Virus record (IMG/VR): IMGVR_UViG_2526164597_000012
Reading direction: 5' to 3' (one strand)
Origin: a virus
Lineage: Duplodnaviria > Heunggongvirae > Uroviricota > Caudoviricetes
Length of the DNA stretch: 38,876 nucleotides
Below are positions 1,126-37,988 of the stretch, piece by piece. Each line of letters begins with the position of its first letter. The stretch's first letter is position 1. Both the position numbers and the translations under genes were made by a program. The notes under the pieces were generated by a model. It made no database searches, had not been told where the DNA came from, and was given only the letters and a program-made list of their open reading frames with translations.

Positions 1126-1151
1126 GCGGCGTTTCATTATTTGAAAAAGAA

Positions 1152-1724
1152 TTACATTTCAGGTTGCGTTATGACAGTCCCAACAGGGTGGTAGCGGTAG
1201 ATCGTTGACAGTCCAATATCATAGATAATTGCCAGCCGCTTTCTGTCATACCCTTTCTGGAGCAATCTTGCGATCTGCTCATGCTGCTCCTTCGTCAGTT
1301 TCGGGCGACGTCCTCCAACTCTCCCTTGTGCTCGCGCAGCAGCCAGTCCTGCCAGCGTGCGCTCAACTATCAGTTCACGCTCCATTTCTGCCAGTGCACC
1401 CATCATATGAAAAAAGAACCTTCCCATCGGAGTGCTGGTATCGATTGAATCCGTCAGACTGCGAAAATTGACACCTTTTGCGCGTAGCTCTTCTGTGAGA
1501 GCAATGAGGTGTTTCATTCTTCTACCCAACCGATCCAGCTTCCAGACCACCAATGTATCCCCTCTTTTAAGGCACTTTAAAGCGCGTTTCAGGCCTGGTC
1601 GTTCCGACTTGGTTCCGCTCATTTTGTCCTCAAAAATCTGTTCACATCCTGCGCACATTAATGCATTGCGTTGCAAATCTGTGTTTTGGTCATTTGTTGA
1701 CACACGTATGTAGCCAATCAGCAT
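1152..1724 (-). CDS. gin: Gin-family serine DNA invertase (190 aa)
   Basis: MLIGYIRVSTNDQNTDLQRNAL... with catalytic Ser region and C-terminal HTH; near-colinear with Mu Gin as recalled; RBS AAGGGAG 8 nt upstream of ATG at 1724; ORF-track entry 1152..1919 is an upstream extension. Confidence 0.9.
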   Translation of the reverse strand: MLIGYIRVSTNDQNTDLQRNALMCAGCEQIFEDKMSGTKSERPGLKRALKCLKRGDTLVVWKLDRLGRRMKHLIALTEELRAKGVNFRSLTDSIDTSTPMGRFFFHMMGALAEMERELIVERTLAGLAAARAQGRVGGRRPKLTKEQHEQIARLLQKGYDRKRLAIIYDIGLSTIYRYHPVGTVITQPEM

Positions 1725-1778
1725 TAAAAATACTCCCTTTTGAGTGGTTAAAGTACTGAGATAATGTGGGGAGGATTT

Positions 1779-1804
1779 GAGAGATAAACGTTGGTTTAGG
1801 GGAA
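1779..1804. other. Candidate gix-like crossover site A (..AAACG TT GGTTTAGGGGAA)
   Basis: Right half-site GGTTTAGGGGAA matches Mu gix half-site GGTTTACAGGAA (as recalled) at 10/12; sits at the 5' edge of the conserved cassette block, next to the gin promoter. Confidence 0.4.
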
Positions 1805-2299
1805 GGCTCGGCGCTGCCCGTTGGTGTGCCCGTTCCATGGCCCTCAGCCACACCGCCAACGGGGTGGCTGAAATGCAATGGTGCAGCATTTTCTTCTGAA
1901 ATGTATCCCAAACTGGCAAAAGCCTACCCCACCAATAAATTACCGGATTTACGGGGAGAATTTATTCGCGGTTGGGATGATGGGCGCGGGGTGGATGCTG
2001 GCCGCGCTTTGCTTAATTGGCAGCCACACACAATTTTGGATCATGCACACTATATGGAATTATGGACCGGGGATGGACTTGCCGCGGGAAGTACACGGGA
2101 AGGAGTAAACCCTGGAATACTGGCTACATACGGGGACGGGGGAATAGTTAAAACAGACGAACCCGGTTTAAATGTGCCTTCCTCACTACGAGCCGTTAGC
2201 TCTCGTAATGTAAAACGGTTTGGTGAAATTAGTGGAAATGTAGGTACAGAAACTCGCCCTCGCAACGTTGCATTTAATTACATCGTAAGAGCCGCATGA
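1781..2299 (+). CDS. Promoterless alternative tail-fibre C-terminal cassette A (Sv-like)
   Basis: Frame open from 1781; begins with the same ~65-aa block (NVGLGEGSALPVGVPVPWP..TPPTGWLKCNGAAFSSEMYP..RGEFIRGWDDGRG) found in the expressed tail fibre, then a unique segment, then conserved ETRPRNVAFNYIVRAA end. Confidence 0.7.
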   Translation, partial: EINVGLGEGSALPVGVPVPWPSATPPTGWLKCNGAAFSSEMYPKLAKAYPTNKLPDLRGEFIRGWDDGRGVDAGRALLNWQPHTILDHAHYMELWTGDGLAAGSTREGVNPGILATYGDGGIVKTDEPGLNVPSSLRAVSSRNVKRFGEISGNVGTETRPRNVAFNYIVRAA

Positions 2300-2768
2300 A
2301 AACGTTGGTTTGGGGGAAGGCTCTGCACTGCCCGTTGGTGTGCCTGTTCCATGGCCCTCAGCCACACCACCAACGGGCTGGCTGAAATGTAACGGTGCAG
2401 CATTTTCTTCTGAAATGTACCCAAATCTGGCAAAGGTTTACCCAACGTTAAAATTACCTGATTTACGCGGTGAGTTTATCCGTGGCTGGGATGATGGGCG
2501 CGGGGTGGATGCCGGAAGGGGCATCTTAAGCATGCAGGGGTGGTTAACAGGAAGTCATTATCATAATATTCGGTCATGGGATGCGTGGGATAACACGGTA
2601 CTGGTGCCAAATGACAAAAGAGGGGATAGTCTGTTGTCGACAGATAATGCCGTCCGGCAAGGTGCAATTAACGGTAGATTTACCAGTCAATACAGAACGG
2701 AATCCTCAGATGGGAATGAAAACCGCCCACGCAATATTGCCTTCAATTATATTGTGAGAACCGCATAA
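2289..2768 (+). CDS. Promoterless alternative tail-fibre C-terminal cassette B (Sv-like)
   Basis: Same conserved N-terminal block and C-terminal ENRPRNIAFNYIVRTA; unique middle; stop overlaps the tfa start (TAATGA). Confidence 0.7.
   Translation, partial: EPHENVGLGEGSALPVGVPVPWPSATPPTGWLKCNGAAFSSEMYPNLAKVYPTLKLPDLRGEFIRGWDDGRGVDAGRGILSMQGWLTGSHYHNIRSWDAWDNTVLVPNDKRGDSLLSTDNAVRQGAINGRFTSQYRTESSDGNENRPRNIAFNYIVRTA
2293..2318. other. Candidate gix-like crossover site B (..GAAAACG TT GGTTTGGGGGAA)
   Basis: Same half-site motif as site A at the equivalent position of cassette B. Confidence 0.4.
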
Positions 2769-3379
2769 TGAATAACGCGATATTAAATGATGACCTTATT
2801 GCCGTACAGGCAGGAAACATCGTCGTTTATAACTATGATGGTGAGACACGGGAATATATTTCCGAATCAACTGAATATCTTGCTGTGGGTGTTGGTATTC
2901 CGGCTAATTCCTGTTTAGATGCCCCAGGCGCACATAAATCTGGCTATGCTATTCGCCGTTCGGAGGATTTAAATTCATGGGAGTATGCGCCAGACCATCG
3001 TGGTGAAACCGTCTATAGCACTGACACGGGAAACACCGAAGAAATCACGGCGCTGGGTGACTACCCGAAAAATACAACCACTATCGCCCCGTTAACACCA
3101 TACGATAAATGGGATGGTGAAAAATGGGTGACAGATACTGAGGTACAACATCGTGCCGCAGTAGAAGCGGCAGAAACCAAGCGCCAGTCACTGGCTGATG
3201 CGGCAATGGATTCCATAAGTCTGATTCAGTTGAAGTTGCGGGCCGGGCGGAAGTTGACGCAGGCAGAAACCACCCGGCTTAATGCCGTGCTGGATTATAT
3301 AGACGCGCTGAACGCAATGGATATAAACATGGCACCAGATATCAACTTGCCGGAAATACCACTGGCATCAGCCAGTTGA
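2768..3379 (+). CDS. Tail fibre assembly protein (Tfa/U-like chaperone)
   Basis: 203 aa; immediately follows cassette B with overlapping stop/start; size, position and sequence style typical of Mu U / lambda Tfa family. Confidence 0.7.
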   Translation: MNNAILNDDLIAVQAGNIVVYNYDGETREYISESTEYLAVGVGIPANSCLDAPGAHKSGYAIRRSEDLNSWEYAPDHRGETVYSTDTGNTEEITALGDYPKNTTTIAPLTPYDKWDGEKWVTDTEVQHRAAVEAAETKRQSLADAAMDSISLIQLKLRAGRKLTQAETTRLNAVLDYIDALNAMDINMAPDINLPEIPLASAS

Positions 3380-3385
3380 ATATAA

Positions 3386-4687
3386 CTAAGCCGCCCTCAC
3401 GATATAGTTAAATGCAATATTGCGGGGGCGGGTTTCACTACCACCTGTGTTACCAATACTTCCTCGTGAATGAAGCGTTGGTGATGGAATCAAACTCCCT
3501 CCTGTATTTGTGGCATCAAGCCCCCTGCCTTGTGTATATGTTTTTTTGAAAATCGTAGCCAACTCCCATTCATCTTTTGTGTCATATCCATCGTTAGCTA
3601 CAACAATATGGCGATGTTTTTCCAACATCCCGTTTTGAATGCTCAATAAAGCGCGTGCCGCATCAATTCCTCGCCCATCATCCCAGCCACGGATAAATTC
3701 TCCGCGTAAATCCGGTAATTTATTGGTGGGGTAGGCTTTTGCCAGTTTGGGGTACATTTCAGAAGAAAATGCTGCACCGTTACATTTCAGCCAGCCCGTT
3801 GGTGGTGTTGCTAAGGGCCATGGAACAGGCACGCCAACGGGCAGTGCAGAACCTTCTCCTAAACCAAGGTAATTGAGGACTTCTTTTATACTGCCCATAG
3901 CGATAATAGCGCGACCAATAGCTGTAAGGGTTGTCAGTGCTGCGCGGTCTGCTCCGGTAAAATAAGGCAACCGATCTGCTGCAGTGGCAAGTCCTGCCAG
4001 AGCAGTGAGCGTGGCATCTGCCGGTTGTTTTCCGTTTGCCAGATCGTATGCAGCCTTGACCGCTTTCGGTGTGGCGGCCAGTATTTCAGACGTGCTGTTG
4101 ATGTCACTGCTCAATTGTACGGTGCCTTTTGCCGTCAGCGAGGCAGCAGGCACTCCCGTTATCTGACTCCACGGGTGAGTGTGGCTGACGGGCGCCTTGC
4201 CGGCTGCAAGGTCGTATGCAGCCTTGACCGCCTTCGGCGTGGCAGCCTCAGTTTCTGATTGACTGTCCGTGGCGCTGCTCAGTTGTACGGTGCCTTTTGC
4301 CGTCAGCGAGGCAGCAGGCACTCCCGTTATCTGACTCCACGGGTGAGTATGGCTGACGGGGGCCTTGCCGGCAGCCAGGTCATATGCAGCCTTGACGGCC
4401 TTTGGTGTGGCGGCCAGCGTTTCAGAGGTGCTGTTGGTGGCACTGCTCAGTTGGGTGAACCCCTTAGCTGTCAGTGTCGCGTCCGGGTGGTTACGGGAAC
4501 GTACGTGTTCAGCCAGTGACTGTGCGGCTTCCTCCGTTTTTTTCTTCAGCCATTTCGTCCTGTTTGCCAGTTGCCGGGGGGCTCGATTTGATATCCCGTC
4601 TGCACCACCCAGAACCGGATCTGATGTCTCCAGTTGATAGATATTTTCTTCCCACTTTTCTGTTTCATTCAGGTTTCCCATAATCAA
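3386..4687 (-). CDS. Tail fibre protein (S-like): constant N-terminal part + currently joined variable C-terminal cassette C
   Basis: 433 aa; internal tandem fibre repeats; C-terminal ~160 aa start with the conserved cassette block (LGLGEGSALPVGVPVPWP...) and end ETRPRNIAFNYIVRAA. Confidence 0.85.
   Translation of the reverse strand: MIMGNLNETEKWEENIYQLETSDPVLGGADGISNRAPRQLANRTKWLKKKTEEAAQSLAEHVRSRNHPDATLTAKGFTQLSSATNSTSETLAATPKAVKAAYDLAAGKAPVSHTHPWSQITGVPAASLTAKGTVQLSSATDSQSETEAATPKAVKAAYDLAAGKAPVSHTHPWSQITGVPAASLTAKGTVQLSSDINSTSEILAATPKAVKAAYDLANGKQPADATLTALAGLATAADRLPYFTGADRAALTTLTAIGRAIIAMGSIKEVLNYLGLGEGSALPVGVPVPWPLATPPTGWLKCNGAAFSSEMYPKLAKAYPTNKLPDLRGEFIRGWDDGRGIDAARALLSIQNGMLEKHRHIVVANDGYDTKDEWELATIFKKTYTQGRGLDATNTGGSLIPSPTLHSRGSIGNTGGSETRPRNIAFNYIVRAA
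3854..3879. other. Candidate gix-like crossover site C inside the tail-fibre gene (inverted relative to sites A and B)
   Basis: Minus-strand ..AATTACC TT GGTTTAGGAGAA at the constant/variable boundary (codons ~273-279). Confidence 0.4.
3960..4480. repeat. Tandem in-frame repeats (~168 bp / 56 aa, ~2.6 copies) within the tail-fibre gene
   Basis: Protein repeats LTAKG..QLSS..SE..AATPKAVKAAYDLA.GK.PVSHTHPWSQITGVPAAS; DNA copies near 4044, 4212, 4381; causes the repeated plus-strand shadow ORFs 4025..4258 and 4259..4519. Confidence 0.75.
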
Positions 4688-6696: not shown

Positions 6697-6750
6697 GGGG
6701 GCAGTATTGCCCCCGTGCGGGAACGCTGATATTAAAGGCGTTTAAAAAGC

Positions 6751-13026: not shown

Positions 13027-13090
13027 GATTGTGCTCCTGTGTAAGTTCAGGGCAGTATGTCGGGAGAAGCGCGTGACGGATATTAAAGGA

Positions 13091-13117
13091 GATTAAGAAG
13101 AAGGGGCCGGAGCCCCT
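13091..13117 (-). terminator. Rho-independent terminator-like hairpin after the 93-aa ORF
   Basis: Minus-strand AGGGGC-TCCG-GCCCCT followed by TCTTCTTAATCTCC. Confidence 0.45.
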
Positions 13118-18964: not shown

Positions 18965-19004
18965 GGAGACAGTTTGTGAGAAATGCAGGCCCGGCGATTT
19001 TAAT
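18965..19004 (-). promoter_or_regulatory. Late-operon promoter/leader motif, copy 2 (upstream of protease/scaffold gene)
   Basis: Minus strand ATTAAAATC-N6-CCTGCATTT-N8-CTGTCTCC; near-identical tripartite motif upstream of the holin-like gene. Confidence 0.5.
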
Positions 19005-19065
19005 CTGCTTTAGAAAACATCAGGGGAGAAGGACAGGGAAAGCAATACGGTGAACCGGAGGCGGT

Positions 19066-26061: not shown

Positions 26062-26412
26062 TTAAAGCCCCATCGCAACAGCCAGGCAGACCGCTGCAAC
26101 AATCAGTGCACGGCGGATTAACGCAGCAGAAAACACCAGGTGAAGGCCGGTCTGTACCGGGAAACGCCCTTCAGCCATCAGCCTGTCGTCATGTTTCAGG
26201 TACTGACCGGGACGGGCTTTGGGGAAGAGCGAACGGTCAAGCCAGTAACCCAGCACTGCTGCCAGCGTGATGAGTGCCAGCTTGTAGATCACAACAGGCA
26301 GCTGCTGTGGTGAGACCAGAGCGATGGTGCCCAGCAACAGCACTGAGGTCAGCAGCCAGCCGCTGAGGCGAGGTTTTTTAACAGGGGGAATGAATTTTTT
26401 CAGGTTTTTCAT
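26062..26412 (-). CDS. Holin-like small membrane protein (first gene of late/lysis operon)
   Basis: 116 aa from ATG 26412 (RBS GGAGAC), 2-3 predicted TM segments; directly upstream of endolysin. Confidence 0.5.
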   Translation of the reverse strand: MKNLKKFIPPVKKPRLSGWLLTSVLLLGTIALVSPQQLPVVIYKLALITLAAVLGYWLDRSLFPKARPGQYLKHDDRLMAEGRFPVQTGLHLVFSAALIRRALIVAAVCLAVAMGL

Positions 26413-26431
26413 GTGTGTCTCCTTATCTGGT

Positions 26432-26471
26432 GGAGACAGCATCACAAATACAGGGCGCGAAGGATTTTAAA
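26432..26471 (-). promoter_or_regulatory. Late-operon promoter/leader motif, copy 1 (upstream of holin-like gene)
   Basis: Minus strand TTTAAAATC-N8-CCTGTATTT-N6-CTGTCTCC, then ACCAGATAA-GGAGAC so that CTGTCTCC can pair with the SD region. Confidence 0.5.
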
Positions 26472-26542
26472 GCGCGTTAAGAGAGCCGGGGATACGGGAT
26501 GTGCAGGATAAACGATGAATTATTCACAGAGGAGAATACGAT

Positions 26543-27271
26543 ATGACGCAGACACTGAATCCGGTCATCACTGTCACCGTGTCCGGTCCTGTGGGCAGCG
26601 GTAAAAGTTACATATTGGCGCGAATAGAGGAAGTGGTGAAACAGGAATTCGGAAACAGCGTCATTGTCGACGCCGCAGACGTGGACGGTGAGCGCCGTAT
26701 GAGTGGGGATGATCTGAGCACATGGCAGAAACCACGGGCTGGCACAGTGATCAGGCTGGAGGAATACACGGGACAGGGCCTGTTGTCATACGGCGAGGAG
26801 CGTATCTGTCGGACGAATGAGCTGCTGGATGTTATATGCCCCACGGGCCGGCAACCCTGGATACTGCCCGATGCACTGCATGCCACCATTGCGGCACTGA
26901 TGACAGTTTACGATCAGGAGCTGCTCATGAAGGAGTTACGTAAACTCACTGGTCAGTCAACAGAATGTTGTTCGTCCCCGAAGTACGGCAAACAGGAACA
27001 CATCCCGATTAACCAGCCTCCCCGGTTCTTCGACGAATACCTTCTGACACCGGAAAATAAAGCTGAGCATGAAGAGATCAAAGCGGCGTTGTTCCGGGAA
27101 ATCAGGAAGATTGCTGAAATGCAACTGGAGGGCGGGCTGGACAGAGTGATGGCGAGAGGAGAATGGGCATCGCTGTTTGAAAGAGTTTCCCCGGAATTAC
27201 TTCCCCTCGCACTGGCTATCGGGATTATGCAGACAGCGGATAAACCTCACTTACGTTCATTAAACACGTAA
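26543..27271 (+). CDS. Accessory P-loop (Walker A GPVGSGKS) protein, function unknown
   Basis: 242 aa; RBS GAGGAG 8 nt upstream; Walker A at residues 15-22 followed closely by hhhhD (VIVDAADVD); diverges from the late operon, outside the conserved Mu-like core. Confidence 0.6.
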   Translation: MTQTLNPVITVTVSGPVGSGKSYILARIEEVVKQEFGNSVIVDAADVDGERRMSGDDLSTWQKPRAGTVIRLEEYTGQGLLSYGEERICRTNELLDVICPTGRQPWILPDALHATIAALMTVYDQELLMKELRKLTGQSTECCSSPKYGKQEHIPINQPPRFFDEYLLTPENKAEHEEIKAALFREIRKIAEMQLEGGLDRVMARGEWASLFERVSPELLPLALAIGIMQTADKPHLRSLNT

Positions 27272-27651
27272 CGCATAATCCGGGATACGCATTCAGCGAT
27301 GACTGCATTTTCACCGGTTTTTACTGCATCCAGAAGTGACTCTTTAAATGGTACGGGCCGGGGCTGCAGAAAGGTCGGCATGGCATTGAGCAGACAGAGC
27401 GTTTTTTCCGTGAGGACGACATCAGCCGCTCCCACAGCCAGCAACTGAGAGTAACGAATATAGCTGTTATCCCGAAGCCATATCAGCGTATCAATAAAAC
27501 ACCGGCACTTTTTCTGGTCGTGATCAACCTGGTCCGGGATATCGAAAAAACCAGAATAAATCAAAACCTGAGGTGCCGGATGCGTGTTCAGTAATCGGCA
27601 GAATATTTTGCCGGTGAGTACATAAAAATCATCATTTAAGGAGTGCATCAT
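27247..27651 (-). CDS. Hypothetical protein (134 aa), antisense gene inside the accessory island
   Basis: Fills the 380-bp gap between two plus-strand genes; tandem ATG ATG start; start codon overlaps the divergent start of 27650..27865; no family recognised. Confidence 0.35.
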   Translation of the reverse strand: MMHSLNDDFYVLTGKIFCRLLNTHPAPQVLIYSGFFDIPDQVDHDQKKCRCFIDTLIWLRDNSYIRYSQLLAVGAADVVLTEKTLCLLNAMPTFLQPRPVPFKESLLDAVKTGENAVIAECVSRIMRYVFNERK

Positions 27652-27865
27652 GAATCCCCGATTAACGTTAACAGAACATCAGCGCCGTGCTGAAGCAGTG
27701 AACAATGTTCTGGAAGATATTATCCGGTTATACCGCGGAGAACTGAGTGTCTGTCGTGCCGCTTTTCATTTTCAGGGAATACAAAAGCAGTTTGATACTT
27801 CTGTTTTTGCAGAAGGTATTACTTATGCCCTGGACCGGATAAGGTCAGAAAATCGCCCCGGATAA
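27650..27865 (+). CDS. Hypothetical small protein (71 aa)
   Basis: Strong RBS AAGGAG 6 nt upstream of ATG; no family recognised. Confidence 0.5.
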   Translation: MNPRLTLTEHQRRAEAVNNVLEDIIRLYRGELSVCRAAFHFQGIQKQFDTSVFAEGITYALDRIRSENRPG

Positions 27866-27919
27866 TCCCTAAACCACATTAACAGAAATCCCGCCATCCC
27901 TGCCGCATCATGAAAGAAC

Positions 27920-27951
27920 GACCAGCCCGGCACCCGAAAGCCGGGCTGGTC
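27920..27951. promoter_or_regulatory. Perfect 12-bp stem / 8-nt loop hairpin in the intergenic region before the methyltransferase gene
   Basis: GACCAGCCCGGC-ACCCGAAA-GCCGGGCTGGTC; no clear U-tract on either strand. Confidence 0.5.
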
Positions 27952-28055
27952 ATCGCCCCACAGGAATGCGCTGTGAGCCGACCAAGGTTCAGTCAGTCTC
28001 GCGAGACCTGACCAGACTGCCATATTTTTTAATAATTGTAAAAGGCTTACAGATT

Positions 28056-28820
28056 ATGAAAATGCAGACATTACCCATCGTGCCGTGGATTGGTGGCAAA
28101 CGCCGCCTTGCAAAACACATTCTGCCGCTGTTTCCGGCGCATGAATGTTATGTGGAGCCGTTTTGTGGGGCAGCAGCGCTCTATTTTCTTAAGACACCCG
28201 GCAAGATCGAAGTCATCAATGATATCAACGGTGAACTGGTGAATCTGTACCGGGTGGTAAAGCATCACCTGGAAGAATTTGTCCGCCAGTTCAAATGGGC
28301 GCTGGTCAGCCGTCAGATCTACAAATGGCTGCAGATCACCCCGGAAGAAACACTGACGGATATCCAGCGTGCGGCACGGTTCTACTACCTTCAGAAGCAG
28401 GCGTTTGGCGGCAAGGTGGCAGAGCACAGCTTCGGTACCTCCACCACATCCCCGCCACGCTTCAACCTGCTACGTATTGAAGAAGAACTGTCAGCGGCAC
28501 ACCTGCGGCTTTCCAGAACAGTCATAGAACACATGGACTGGCAACAGTGCATTGAGCGTTATGATCGTCCGCACACGCTGTTCTACTGCGACCCACCGTA
28601 CCTGGGTACGGAAGGCTATGGTGTGGATTTTCCTGAAGGGAACTACTCGCGGCTGGCAGAGCTGGCCCGGTGCATCAGAGGAAAAATGATAATTTCGGTG
28701 AACGACATCCCGCAGATGCGCGAGGTGTTCACTGGACTGAACATACAGACAGTGAATATCAACTACAGTCTGGCGGGTAAACCCACGCCGCGCCGTGAAC
28801 TGCTAATCTGCAACTTCTGA
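28056..28820 (+). CDS. DNA N6-adenine methyltransferase, Dam-like (orphan)
   Basis: 254 aa; N-terminal EPFCGAAAL (FxGxG-like AdoMet motif) and catalytic DPPY (..FYCDPPYLG..); no adjacent restriction endonuclease gene; start at ATG 28056 with AAAGG upstream. Confidence 0.8.
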   Translation: MKMQTLPIVPWIGGKRRLAKHILPLFPAHECYVEPFCGAAALYFLKTPGKIEVINDINGELVNLYRVVKHHLEEFVRQFKWALVSRQIYKWLQITPEETLTDIQRAARFYYLQKQAFGGKVAEHSFGTSTTSPPRFNLLRIEEELSAAHLRLSRTVIEHMDWQQCIERYDRPHTLFYCDPPYLGTEGYGVDFPEGNYSRLAELARCIRGKMIISVNDIPQMREVFTGLNIQTVNINYSLAGKPTPRRELLICNF

Positions 28821-28850
28821 AACAAAACCGGAAAGCACAATGCTTTCCGG
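28821..28850 (-). terminator. Rho-independent terminator for the repressor transcript (possibly bidirectional)
   Basis: Perfect 10-bp stem CCGGAAAGCA-CAA-TGCTTTCCGG followed on the minus strand by TTTTGTT. Confidence 0.7.
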
Positions 28851-28936
28851 TAAACCAAACAACTTCCACTATGTCACTGGCGATGTTTTCTGAAAGCATC
28901 CAGATCAACCACCTGTCCTTTGTGTCCGGGTCAGTA

Positions 28937-29293
28937 TCAGCCTGCGATTTTTCCTGGTTTTGGCTGAGTATAGAATCGCCCAATCTCAAGAAATGAGCGT
29001 TGTTGGTCTGGTGTCATGTCGTCAAAAGTATCTATTAGTTTTTGTTTTTCTGGGGAAATTTGATTCTGGTTTCTAGTCATACCATCTGTGCTCATTCCAG
29101 TGAGCAACCAATTTACATCAACATTAAACTCTTGATGCATCTTTAACAGAAACTCCCCTCCAGGCATCGCCTTTCCATTTTCAATCTGACTGATACCACC
29201 ATTAGAAATACCTAAACGAGCTGCAAATTCTCTCTGGTTCAACCCTGCTTTCTTCCTCACAGAAATAACGCGCTCTCCTATATCTTTGCTCAT
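28937..29293 (-). CDS. Prophage repressor, XRE-family HTH (c-like)
   Basis: 118 aa; N-terminal HTH ..KKAGLNQREFAARLGISNGGISQIENG..; divergent from the early operon with an operator palindrome between them. Confidence 0.8.
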   Translation of the reverse strand: MSKDIGERVISVRKKAGLNQREFAARLGISNGGISQIENGKAMPGGEFLLKMHQEFNVDVNWLLTGMSTDGMTRNQNQISPEKQKLIDTFDDMTPDQQRSFLEIGRFYTQPKPGKIAG

Positions 29294-37177: not shown

Positions 37178-37627
37178 ATGCAGAAAAAACGCCTGATACA
37201 GCTTATCCATATTGCCCGTAATGAACTGGGTATGGATGAAGACACCTACCGCCAGATGTTACAGGGGCTGACCGGTAAAGCCTCAACCAAAGGAATGGAT
37301 ACCACACAACTAAACTGCGTGCTGGAATCCATGAAAAAGAAAGGCTTTCGCGTTAAACCAGCCAGAAAAGCCAGCTCCGGTTTACCGCTGGATAACCATC
37401 CGCAGTCCAGGAAAATTCGTGCGCTATGGCTTGAAATGGCTGCTGCCGGCATTGTTCGTGACCGTTCAGAAAATGCATTAGCGAGGTGGATCAAGCGGGA
37501 AACGGGCATCAGCGCCCTGCGCTGGCTCAGTACTGAACAGGCAAGCAGTGTTATTGAGAAACTGAAGAAGTGGCAGCGCAGAGCTGCGGGAGTCAAACAT
37601 GAGCGACCTGAATCAGTTTCGAAGTAA
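37178..37627 (+). CDS. gemA: GemA-like regulatory protein (Mu gp16 family)
   Basis: 149 aa; N-terminal ..KRLIQLIHIARNELGMDEDTYR.. resembles Mu GemA; located just upstream of mor. Confidence 0.65.
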   Translation: MQKKRLIQLIHIARNELGMDEDTYRQMLQGLTGKASTKGMDTTQLNCVLESMKKKGFRVKPARKASSGLPLDNHPQSRKIRALWLEMAAAGIVRDRSENALARWIKRETGISALRWLSTEQASSVIEKLKKWQRRAAGVKHERPESVSK

Positions 37628-37988
37628 GGGGCCGGAACTCCTGGTGGAACTGGCACAGCATACCTCTGAGACCGTTCGCGAGATTATTGATATTGAGCCC
37701 GAAGTTGCCGACCAGATTGGTCAGGCCGTCGCGAACCGAATGATGCAGGTCTGGGGCGGGCAAAACGTTTATTTCCCGATGGGCATGGTATGGAAGGTCA
37801 GTCAGCGCGACCGGGAAATCTTCAGGGAGTTTAACGGACGCAACCACCACGAACTGGCCCGCAAATTTGGTGTTTCGCTTCAGTGGGTCTACAGCGTGGT
37901 TAAGCGGGTAAGAAAAGAAGAACTGGATCGGATGCAGGGCAAGCTATTTGCTGATGAACCCGATGCAGATACGGAGAAAAAAGAGTAA
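37599..37988 (+). CDS. mor: Mor/C-family transcriptional activator (middle/late gene activator)
   Basis: 129 aa; C-terminal ..FNGRNHHELARKFGVSLQWVYSVVKRVRK.. matches Mor/C HTH region (Mu Mor ..FNGRNVSELTTRYGVTFNTVYKAIRRMRR.. as recalled). Confidence 0.8.
   Translation: MSDLNQFRSKGPELLVELAQHTSETVREIIDIEPEVADQIGQAVANRMMQVWGGQNVYFPMGMVWKVSQRDREIFREFNGRNHHELARKFGVSLQWVYSVVKRVRKEELDRMQGKLFADEPDADTEKKE

What the first reader, a model, noticed from the sequence alone, without database searches (positions are those of the whole stretch)
26543..28820. Uncharacterised accessory module between the lysis genes and the repressor
The Mu-like core is tightly syntenic, but between the late promoter and the repressor there is a plus-strand block that diverges from the late operon: a 242-aa protein with an N-terminal Walker A motif (GPVGSGKS) and no recognisable partner domains, a 134-aa antisense ORF, a 71-aa ORF with a strong RBS, and an orphan Dam-like methyltransferase. 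Such repressor-proximal positions in prophages commonly hold lysogen-expressed cargo such as superinfection exclusion, anti-phage defence, toxin or anti-restriction genes. I recognise none of the three non-MTase proteins, so this is the best candidate in the window for an undescribed system.
Basis: inference. Interest (0 to 1): 0.7.

Follow-up and report, generated by a model that had tools for sequence, protein, structure and literature searches.

The report
Variable accessory-gene hotspot in BcepMu-like prophage
The region is a real accessory-gene hotspot in a very common E. coli Mu-type prophage; it holds three separable units of untested function rather than one defence system, and most of it is probably switched on during lytic growth, not in the lysogen.

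Summary
All four ORFs exist and evolve as coding genes. The window is a BcepMu-like transposable prophage, the same as EC958 Phi2 and phage PhiKM, and the module matches in about 630 of 5426 complete E. coli genomes.

The block is a variable hotspot made of separable units, not one system.

1. The "P-loop protein" is a mosaic. Only its first ~75 residues (a mini P-loop) are widespread in phages. Its modules occur elsewhere as separate small ORFs.
2. The 134-aa antisense gene (PHROG 2266) also lies in the old/tin hotspot of P2-like phages. In 53 of 53 IMG/VR loci it starts head-to-head with a 46-86-aa ORF, the start codons overlapping by 2 nt. Here that ORF is the 71-aa one.
3. The methyltransferase is the published orphan M.EcoMIV. 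It is poorly transcribed in the lysogen and has no assigned motif.
4. Between the 71-aa ORF and dam there is an empty cargo slot with a leftover terminator.

The only regulatory element upstream of the P-loop gene is the late-activator site it shares with the holin promoter. I therefore infer that the plus-strand genes are lytic-cycle genes and that only the antisense gene is a plausible lysogen gene.

No function is shown. No known defence, toxin-antitoxin or anti-defence family matches. Interest is moderate.

The parts
26465..26482 (.). Near-palindromic late-activator (Mor/C-type) site TTTTAAAGCGCGTTAA. It lies in the 130-bp gap between the holin start (26412, -) and gene A (26543, +).
   Evidence: The pattern gives 16 matches with up to 3 mismatches against 2.2 expected. 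The same TTAA-N6-TTTAAWATC-N~20-ATACT arrangement sits upstream of four leftward late operons, whose first genes start at 26412, 18940, 13026 and 6696. It is conserved in E. coli, L017 and Serratia. That it binds the activator is inferred.
26503..26513 (+). Conserved block GCAGGATAAAC between the activator site and the gene A ribosome-binding site; candidate -10 region for a rightward, activator-dependent promoter.
   Evidence: GCAnGAT is conserved in four lineages. No sigma-70 consensus promoter was found upstream of A. Inferred, not shown.
26543..27271 (+). Gene A: 242-aa mosaic protein (PHROG 3787). N module covers residues 1-78 (26543-26776, mini P-loop), M module ~101-141, C module ~170-242.
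   Evidence: N matches the L017 88-aa ORF (E 4e-12). C matches the Serratia 89-aa ORF (E 2e-10) and the L017 76-aa ORF (E 6e-4). M matches the L017 161-aa ORF (E 3e-3). pN/pS is 0.21-0.35.
27247..27651 (-). o134: 134-aa gene (PHROG 2266), antisense to the A-o71 unit. Its 3' end overlaps A by 25 nt, and its ATG overlaps the o71 ATG on a CATG.
27650..27865 (+). o71: 71-aa ORF (PHROG 4490) with a strong ribosome-binding site. It is kept even where o134 is deleted.
27920..27951 (-). GC-rich hairpin (12-bp stem, about -30 kcal/mol) with a T-rich tail only on the minus strand; terminator-like. It marks an empty cargo slot.
   Evidence: L030 (126-aa gene) and L017 (66-aa and 184-aa genes) carry minus-strand genes at this position.
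28008..28036 (+). Weak sigma-70-like site (CTGACC-17-AATAAT, 9 of 12) upstream of dam.
   Evidence: This is a consensus match only; 5 sites were found against 4.0 expected in the scanned region.
28056..28820 (+). Orphan D12-class N6-adenine DNA methyltransferase. It is M.EcoMIV (EC958_1101), protein WP_000783854.1.
   Evidence: PF02086 8.7e-29. TIGR00571 116 bits against a cut-off of 114.85. DpnM and E. coli Dam are the closest solved structures. pN/pS 0.05-0.10. Identity with the EC958 Phi2 gene shown.
28827..28851 (.). Hairpin between dam and the repressor gene. It has a T-tail on the minus strand, so it is the repressor terminator, and it probably also ends the plus-strand unit.
28937..29293 (-). 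HTH_3 repressor (context; the right-hand boundary of the hotspot).
   Evidence: Alleles only 33% identical sit in the same flanks.

Best explanation
The region is the accessory-gene hotspot of a BcepMu-like transposable prophage. It holds independent units, not one system.

(1) Gene A is the first gene diverging from the late lysis operon. It is a fusion of small phage modules. Its N-terminal ~75 residues form a minimal Walker A / acidic-strand (mini P-loop) domain that probably binds a nucleotide or phosphate.

(2) o134 is embedded antisense between A and o71. Its start codon overlaps that of o71.

(3) dam is an orphan D12 adenine methyltransferase.

Proposed working model (inferred). The late activator bound at the shared dyad (26465-26482) fires the holin operon leftward. 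It also fires an A-(anti-o134)-o71-dam transcript rightward. On this model A, o71 and Dam are made during lytic growth. Dam methylates progeny DNA before packaging, as an anti-restriction measure comparable to Mu mom, P1 dam or T4 dam. Rightward transcription also silences o134 by collision and antisense RNA. o134 can then be expressed only when the plus-strand unit is off, that is, in the lysogen. That makes o134 the one plausible lysogenic-conversion gene, and o71 its lytic-phase counterpart.

Shown here: gene anatomy, conservation, modularity, locus variability, co-occurrence, and the low lysogen transcription of dam (published). Inferred: promoter assignment, timing, and all biochemical roles.
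For: Identity of the phage and prevalence of the module.

Hotspot variability:
- o134 missing in L014/L015.
- A, o134 and o71 all missing in L027.
- Other cargo and no dam in L028, L029 and L033.
- An extra gene in L030.
- A split into 88/161/76-aa ORFs in L017.
- Only the C module (89 aa) in Serratia.

Mini P-loop:
- An exhaustive HMMER search finds only residues 1-~78 outside E. coli, either alone (73-90 aa) or fused to unrelated C-termini.
- The AlphaFold model of the N domain has pLDDT 68 and a beta-loop-alpha-beta-beta layout.
- G20, K21 and E74 are conserved.

Late-promoter motif and its geometry. No sigma-70 promoter upstream of A.

dam:
- Family assignment.
- In L027, dam sits directly behind the A-promoter block.
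- Published qRT-PCR shows M.EcoMIV significantly below host dam in the lysogen, with no assignable motif.

o134 pairing:
- 53 of 53 IMG/VR loci have a divergent 46-86-aa ORF (63-86 aa in all but one, L068) with exactly a 2-nt start overlap.
- In 40 P2-like loci the pair lies between portal Q and gpA. The small ORF is co-oriented with the gpA early operon, and the o134 homologue is oriented as P2 old is (orientation of old from my own knowledge).
- That interval is the old/tin hotspot.

All genes are under purifying selection.
Against: - No transcript data exist for A, o134 or o71.
- The rightward promoter is only a geometric inference. The proximal half-site on the A side (TTAAGAGAG) matches the late consensus (TTTAAWATC) poorly.
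- dam has its own weak sigma-70-like site, and a hairpin lies upstream of it, so co-transcription with A is unproven.
- No promoter for o134 was identified. The nearest minus-strand site (28062-28035) lies behind a terminator-like hairpin.
- o71 and the P2-type small ORFs are not detectably homologous (hhalign probability 0.1%).
- In L017 the o134 homologue has no divergent small ORF.
- Excess conservation at synonymous sites in the 5' part of the o134 homologue is only modest.
- Some N-domain homologues have GK-N in place of GK-S/T, so nucleotide hydrolysis is doubtful.
Confidence: 0.5

Rival explanations
1. One reading: the four genes form one lysogen-expressed defence or exclusion system, with an ATPase, partner proteins and a methyltransferase giving self/non-self marking, like an R-M or BREX-type system.
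For: - The position next to the repressor is typical for morons.
- A Walker A motif and a methyltransferase are adjacent.
- The locus is variable, as defence hotspots are.
Against: - The components occur independently of one another.
- The P-loop domain is only ~75 aa and matches no NTPase family at its threshold.
- There are no PADLOC hits apart from the generic methyltransferase models.
- dam is barely transcribed in the lysogen.
- No nuclease or other effector is present.
Confidence: 0.07
2. o134 plus its small partner is a self-contained anti-phage, abortive-infection or toxin-antitoxin-like cassette. It moves between phage hotspots, and the other genes are unrelated neighbours.
For: - Homologues sit in the gpA-gpQ (old/tin) hotspot of 40 P2-like phages, a locus rich in validated defence systems.
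- Machine-learning methods predict that 15-32% of the unknown proteins of P2-like phages are defensive.
- The gene is lost cleanly in L014/L015.
- In L017 the homologue is co-transcribed with a protein that I judge, from its translated sequence, to have two transmembrane helices.
Against: - No match to PADLOC or Pfam models.
- No enzymatic motif is recognisable.
- In the P2-like set it sits at a nearly fixed position next to Q, more like a semi-core gene than swapped cargo.
- P2 hotspots also carry non-defence genes.
Confidence: 0.2
3. Gene A is a counter-defence or host-takeover protein. The mini P-loop binds a nucleotide (for example an immune second messenger or an NTP), and the swapped C-terminal modules track host targets.
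For: - The C-termini are mosaic and fast-changing behind a conserved N domain.
- Stand-alone N domains occur in jumbo and lambdoid phages at accessory positions.
- In two independent contexts an Acb2/Tad1-hairpin gene lies 0.3-4.4 kb away.
- The inferred lytic-phase expression fits.
Against: - The Acb2/Tad1 association is anecdotal (2 of about 7 contexts) and was not tested statistically.
- Late timing would be unusual for anti-defence proteins, which usually act early.
- There is no structural match to known sponges.
- The Walker A motif is degenerate in some members.
Confidence: 0.15
4. A, o134 and o71 are regulators of the phage's own development (lysis or late timing, or an auxiliary switch), not conflict genes.
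For: - The genes lie between the late promoter and the immunity region.
- The head-to-head overlap of o134 and o71 resembles a mutually exclusive switch.
- o134 has a pattern (F..I.WL...GYI.Y ... V.LT.K.L..LN) that I judge, from memory, to look like a winged-helix protein.
- One source names the Serratia homologue DUF2513.
Against: - The genes are dispensable in many intact-looking relatives.
- Neither DUF2513 nor any HTH model matches in my own scans.
- P2-like phages already have their own C/Cox switch.
Confidence: 0.08

Closest known systems
P2 old/tin (gpA-gpQ) hotspot and phage moron hotspots in general (Rousset et al. 2022, PMC9122126)
   Same: - It is a short variable locus at a fixed position between conserved phage genes.
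- Its cargo is mixed and mostly unannotated.
- o134 homologues lie physically inside the P2 hotspot.
   Different: - Here the hotspot lies between the late lysis promoter and the repressor of a transposable phage.
- No cargo gene matches a validated defence system.
- Most genes face away from the repressor and are probably lytic-phase genes.
Phage orphan Dam-type methyltransferases (T4 Dam, P1 Dam, DpnM/E. coli Dam family); published as M.EcoMIV of EC958 Phi2 (Forde et al. 2015, PMC4659465)
   Same: - It has a D12-class domain and a DPPY motif.
- It has no partner endonuclease.
- It is prophage-borne and is the identical protein accession.
   Different: - Its recognition sequence is unknown. 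The paper states that no homologue above 65% identity has an assigned site.
- It is only distantly related to E. coli Dam (55 bits).
Mu com-mom late DNA-modification operon
   Same: In my model, a DNA-modifying enzyme is placed under the late activator so that progeny DNA is protected before packaging.
   Different: - The enzyme is unrelated (an adenine methyltransferase, not Mom).
- The genome position differs.
- Activator dependence is inferred here, not shown.
P-loop NTPases of the kinase type (thymidylate, APS and pantothenate kinases) and minimal or designed P-loop proteins
   Same: - A beta-strand is followed by GxxGxGKS and a helix.
- A later hydrophobic strand ends in a conserved Glu.
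- The best fold matches are P-loop kinases.
   Different: - The domain has only three strands in ~75 residues.
- No family model reaches its threshold.
- Some homologues have GK-N.
- It occurs as a stand-alone 73-90-aa phage protein.
Face-to-face promoter switches of P2 (C/Cox) and 186 (CI/Apl)
   Same: Two small divergent genes whose transcripts must overlap, so expression of one should interfere with the other.
   Different: - Here there is no intergenic DNA at all: the start codons overlap on a CATG.
- There is no sequence similarity to those switch proteins.
- No promoters have been mapped. The resemblance is recalled from memory and is a lead only.

Membership tests
P-loop NTPase | Walker A GxxxxGK[ST] after a beta-strand | tested here: met
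   GPVGSGKS at residues 15-22. G20 and K21 are invariant in 24-29 homologues, and strand 8-14 is predicted. A few homologues have GK-N.
P-loop NTPase | Walker B: a hydrophobic strand ending in Asp or Glu | tested here: inconclusive
   Strand 68-75 ends in the invariant E74. D43, the other candidate, is not conserved. No biochemical test was possible.
P-loop NTPase | Complete alpha/beta core (five or more strands) and a significant match to an NTPase family model | tested here: not met
Dam / D12-class N6-adenine DNA methyltransferase | PF02086 domain with the SAM-binding and DPPY catalytic motifs | tested here: met
   PF02086 8.7e-29. TIGR00571 116 bits against 114.85. DPPY and EPFCGAAA are visible in the translation. 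DpnM 6.5e-17.
Dam / D12-class N6-adenine DNA methyltransferase | GATC specificity | not testable with these tools
   The published methylome could not assign a motif, and a GATC specificity would be masked by host Dam. GATC is under-represented in the prophage, 91 against 172 expected.
Type II restriction-modification system | Adjacent cognate restriction endonuclease | tested here: not met
   The neighbours are o71 and an empty slot upstream, and a terminator and the repressor downstream.
Known anti-phage defence systems (PADLOC-DB v2) | Match of A, o134 or o71 to a defence-system protein model | tested here: not met
   o134 and o71 have no hits. A has only P-loop-local hits at E of 0.002 or worse. 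The P2-type homologue has none.
Phage hotspot cargo (variable locus between conserved anchors) | Different gene content at the same position in related phages | tested here: met
   At least eight configurations were found between the holin and the repressor. o134 homologues lie between gpQ and gpA in 40 P2-like loci.
T7 gp5.5/5.7-like (from the GenBank note on phage Midge) | Profile similarity to T7 gp5.5 or gp5.7 | tested here: not met
   hhalign probability is 0.2-0.3%. This is a weak test, because the template was a single sequence and the query profile was shallow.
DUF2513 (UniRef name of the Serratia homologue) | Match to Pfam PF10711 | tested here: not met
   No match at E up to 10 for o134, P0024 or P0031.
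Type II toxin-antitoxin pair | Co-directional two-gene operon with a recognisable toxin or antitoxin domain | tested here: not met
   The genes are divergent with overlapping starts, and there is no TA domain.

The most novel reading that the evidence does not exclude
The o134-family gene and its head-to-head small ORF, with start codons sharing one CATG and no intergenic DNA, may be a previously undescribed self-silencing prophage module. In this reading o134 is a lysogen-expressed exclusion or defence protein. It would be switched off by antisense transcription, and possibly neutralised by the small protein, as soon as the phage's own lytic operon reads through the cassette. That would spare the phage from its own weapon. 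The module would be shared by BcepMu-like and P2-like phages. A second unexcluded reading is that the 75-aa mini P-loop is an autonomous nucleotide-binding phage domain used in counter-defence.
Probability: 0.15. Interest if true: 0.7.

Novelty: new member of a known kind. Interest (0 to 1): 0.45.

Why it matters
This prophage is found in roughly one in nine complete E. coli genomes, including the pandemic ST131 clone (EC958 Phi2), so its cargo is carried by a large share of clinical isolates.

The work turns an "unknown system" into testable units:
- a widespread 75-residue Walker-A domain that also stands alone in jumbo and lambdoid phages;
- a gene pair with an invariant 2-nt start-codon overlap, shared with the P2 old/tin hotspot;
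- an orphan methyltransferase whose silence in lysogens now has an explanation, namely late, activator-driven expression.

It also defines the late-promoter motif of this phage group and a hotspot in BcepMu-like phages that could be mined in the way the P2 and P4 hotspots were.

Tried and rejected
- **AlphaFold of the full 242-aa protein.** pLDDT was 43.7, too poor for a fold search.
- **afdb50 fold library.** Unavailable.
- **Profile searches of o134 against PDB sequences.** Nothing.
- **T7 gp5.5/5.7 similarity** (GenBank note on phage Midge). Not reproduced.
- **The DUF2513 name** for the Serratia homologue. Not reproduced.
- **Genome-contig scan with the o134 alignment.** Found nothing.
- **Viral scan with the N-domain alignment.** Failed for lack of a conserved stretch.
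- **Viral scan with P0065.** Found nothing.
- **Rfam on the region.** No hit.
- **Literature searches by RefSeq accession and for PhiKM.** Nothing useful.
- **Homology between o71 and the P2-type small ORFs.** Not detectable.
- **BcepMu itself.** Its gp18-20 sit at this position but are co-oriented with the repressor and are unrelated.
- **PADLOC and Pfam on the alternative cargo of other variants.** Only a weak KwaA hit and DUF2441.
- **Synonymous-site conservation as evidence for embedded promoters.** Only a modest signal.
Full report
**1. What the window is.** The region is 99.9% identical to Escherichia phage PhiKM, which is classified in Bcepmuvirus. It is 100% identical to prophages in many E. 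coli chromosomes. Of 5426 complete genomes, 633 have a match and 460 carry at least 80% of a 3-kb query.

The layout is as follows. Late genes run leftward and end with the SLT endolysin and the holin (start at 26412). The plus-strand block of the finding comes next, then an HTH_3 repressor (28937-29293, minus strand). After that come the rightward early genes: a Ner-like protein, an IclR-type HTH protein, DUF3102, the transposase, an ExeA-type ATPase, Gam, GemA and Mor.

In EC958 (ST131) the same prophage ends at Mor next to ycaL. Its invertible tail-fibre segment has the coordinates published for prophage Phi2.

**2. The observation.** RefSeq annotates all four, including the antisense one. 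Each matches a PHROG of unknown function, or the methyltransferase PHROG.

Comparison with diverged E. coli alleles gives pN/pS of 0.21-0.35 for gene A, 0.2-0.3 for o134, 0.3-0.6 for o71 and 0.05-0.10 for dam. All four are therefore coding. The methyltransferase probably starts at 28056 (254 aa) rather than 27966. No Rfam family matches the region.

**3. Gene A is a mosaic, not an ATPase with missing partners.** Full-length relatives exist only in E. coli. A word-index-free HMMER search of 1.8 billion representative proteins finds 64 hits. Apart from close E. coli relatives, their fragments and two long repeat proteins (P0044, P0085), these share only residues 1 to about 78. That segment either stands alone (73-90 aa) or is fused to unrelated, shuffled C-terminal segments of 80-364 aa.

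The other parts of A are also independent modules:
- In a related prophage (L017) the equivalents are three consecutive ORFs of 88, 161 and 76 aa.
- In Serratia prophages only the C module is present, as an 89-aa ORF. The blastp E-values to A are 4e-12, 3e-3, 6e-4 and 2e-10 respectively.
- In another relative (L033) the N module carries yet another C-terminus.

Stand-alone N modules occur in three kinds of phage. They are in chimallin- or tubulin-encoding jumbo phages. They are in an unclassified phage. They are also in Pseudomonas lambdoid prophages, between the lysis or late-regulation genes and the terminase. In two contexts an Acb2/Tad1-hairpin gene lies 0.3-4.4 kb away. That is a lead, not a statistical result.

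**4. o134 and o71.** o134 has a 53% identical homologue in Serratia BcepMu-like prophages, in the same arrangement. L017 has a 188-aa relative. P2-like phages of Klebsiella, Escherichia and Salmonella have homologues about 31% identical, and these form the core of PHROG 2266.

A scan of IMG/VR gave 53 loci. In every one, the o134 homologue or its remnant starts head-to-head with an ORF on the other strand. That ORF is 63-86 aa in all but one locus (46 aa in L068). The two ATGs share the AT of a CATG.

In the 40 P2-like loci the pair lies between portal gene Q and replication gene A. This is the published old/tin defence hotspot. The small ORF there is co-oriented with gpA. The o134 homologue is oriented as P2 old is; the orientation of old is from my own knowledge.

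In the window the arrangement is equivalent. o71 is co-oriented with gene A, and o134 is embedded antisense between them, overlapping the 3' end of A by 25 nt.

Natural variants L014 and L015 have lost o134 except for its first 18 codons, which carry the o71 ribosome-binding site. They keep A and o71 adjacent. This shows two things: A-o71 is the underlying operon, and o134 is separable from it.

The small partners of the two subfamilies belong to different PHROGs (4490 and 2454) and are not detectably homologous. However, o71 is already down to 29% identity between E. coli and Serratia, where o134 is still 53%. Divergence beyond recognition is therefore plausible.

I could not predict a structure for o134. 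Sequence-profile searches of the PDB, the T7 gp5.5/5.7 similarity noted in GenBank, and the DUF2513 name were not reproduced.

**5. The methyltransferase.** It is a D12-class enzyme with no endonuclease neighbour. It is the same protein accession as in EC958, where it was published as M.EcoMIV on Phi2. In that study its transcript in mid-log LB culture was significantly below host dam. No methylation motif could be assigned, and the authors predicted it to be inactive in the lysogen. GATC is under-represented in the prophage, with 91 observed against 172 expected.

**6. Regulation (inferred).** A motif of the form TTAA-N6-TTTAAWATC-N~20-ATACT precedes four leftward late operons, whose first genes start at 26412, 18940, 13026 and 6696. 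The core pattern is strongly over-represented, with 16 matches against 2.2 expected.

The copy upstream of the holin is nearly palindromic and is centred at 26473.5. That is 61 nt from the holin ATG and 69 nt from the ATG of gene A. A conserved block, GCAnGAT, lies between the site and the ribosome-binding site of A in four lineages. No sigma-70 consensus promoter precedes A.

In variant L027, A, o134 and o71 are cleanly deleted, and dam then sits directly behind this block.

I therefore propose that the late activator drives A-o71-dam rightward as well as the lysis operon leftward. This fits the silence of dam in lysogens. The weak points of this model are listed under evidence against.

**7. 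The locus is a hotspot.** Between the holin and the repressor I found at least eight configurations:
- the window type;
- without o134 (L014/L015);
- with an extra 126-aa minus-strand gene (L030);
- dam only (L027), followed by a protein weakly similar to KwaA and a nucleoid-associated protein;
- a 158-aa version of A with 193-aa and 328-aa proteins co-transcribed with a different repressor, and no dam (L028);
- DUF2441 with 203-aa and 328-aa proteins (L029);
- the split form with 184-aa and 66-aa genes (L017);
- the Serratia form, plus L033 with a 225-aa ORF that begins with a lipoprotein-like signal sequence.

The GC-rich hairpin at 27920-27951 has a T-tail only on the minus strand. It lies exactly where L030 and L017 carry minus-strand cargo. 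I read it as the terminator of a cargo gene that this copy has lost.

BcepMu itself has unrelated genes (gp18-20) at this position, co-oriented with its repressor.

**8. Verdict.** The evidence argues against a single lysogen-expressed system built around an ATPase. It is better described as a phage hotspot holding four things:
- a mosaic protein headed by a mini P-loop module;
- a portable antisense gene with a start-overlapping small partner;
- an already published orphan methyltransferase;
- an empty cargo slot.

No function is demonstrated for any of them. The head-to-head pair and the 75-residue Walker-A module are the two parts most worth experiments.

Noticed in passing
window 26465-26482, 18998-19015, 13081-13096, 6730-6748: A shared late-promoter architecture, TTAA-N6-TTTAAWATC-N~20-ATACT, lies upstream of four leftward late operons. 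It is presumably the binding site of the Mor/C-type activator encoded at 37599-37988. There are 16 matches against 2.2 expected.
   Followed up: partly
window 26411-26438: A conserved inverted repeat GTCTCC-N9-GGAGAC overlaps the holin ribosome-binding site (about -12 kcal/mol). It is conserved in E. coli, L017 and Serratia. It could sequester the holin ribosome-binding site in the late-mRNA leader.
   Followed up: no
window 700-38100 (whole prophage): GATC is at about half its expected frequency (91 against 172) although the phage encodes a Dam-like enzyme. CTAG is nearly absent (1 against 11). Forde et al. 2015 also reported GATC depletion in EC958 prophages.
   Followed up: partly
window about 1150-3400; EC958 1005540-1007607: There is an invertible tail-fibre segment at the left end. 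Forde et al. 2014 observed inversion of this segment in EC958 Phi2. A late-promoter-like motif also falls at 1565-1590.
   Followed up: no
L007-L010, and L006/L011/L014, at the position of window 28937-29293: Repressor alleles only 33% identical, or recombinant over half their length, sit between nearly identical dam and ner flanks. This points to exchange of immunity types within this phage group.
   Followed up: no
L027 2921-4372 (E. coli GIMC1410): In a variant lacking A, o134 and o71, dam is followed by a 401-aa protein with a weak KwaA (Kiwa) match (E 8e-5) and a gene annotated as a nucleoid-associated protein. This may be defence cargo, or the edge of a prophage remnant.
   Followed up: no
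L028 2058-3716 and L029 1740-4343: The alternative cargo includes a 328-aa protein whose start overlaps the stop of a different 153-aa repressor, so it is lysogen-co-transcribed. It is accompanied by 193/203-aa proteins and a DUF2441 protein. None matches PADLOC.
   Followed up: partly
L087 7001-7960, L088, L090 1180-6270: Stand-alone or 140-aa N-domain proteins lie 0.3-4.4 kb from genes with the Acb2/Tad1 hairpin domain (anti-CBASS/anti-Thoeris sponges). They occur in a Pseudomonas prophage and in a contig that carries an NAD-ligase gene.
   Followed up: partly
L017 9670-10224: A 184-aa protein, which I judge from its translated sequence to have two transmembrane helices, is co-transcribed upstream of the o134 homologue on the repressor strand. 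It matches no Pfam or PADLOC model.
   Followed up: partly
window 30310 and 33430: There are other Walker-A strings in the window. GESGAGKS lies in the ExeA-type transposition ATPase and is real. ALSVLGKT lies in the DUF3102 protein and is probably a chance match.
   Followed up: no
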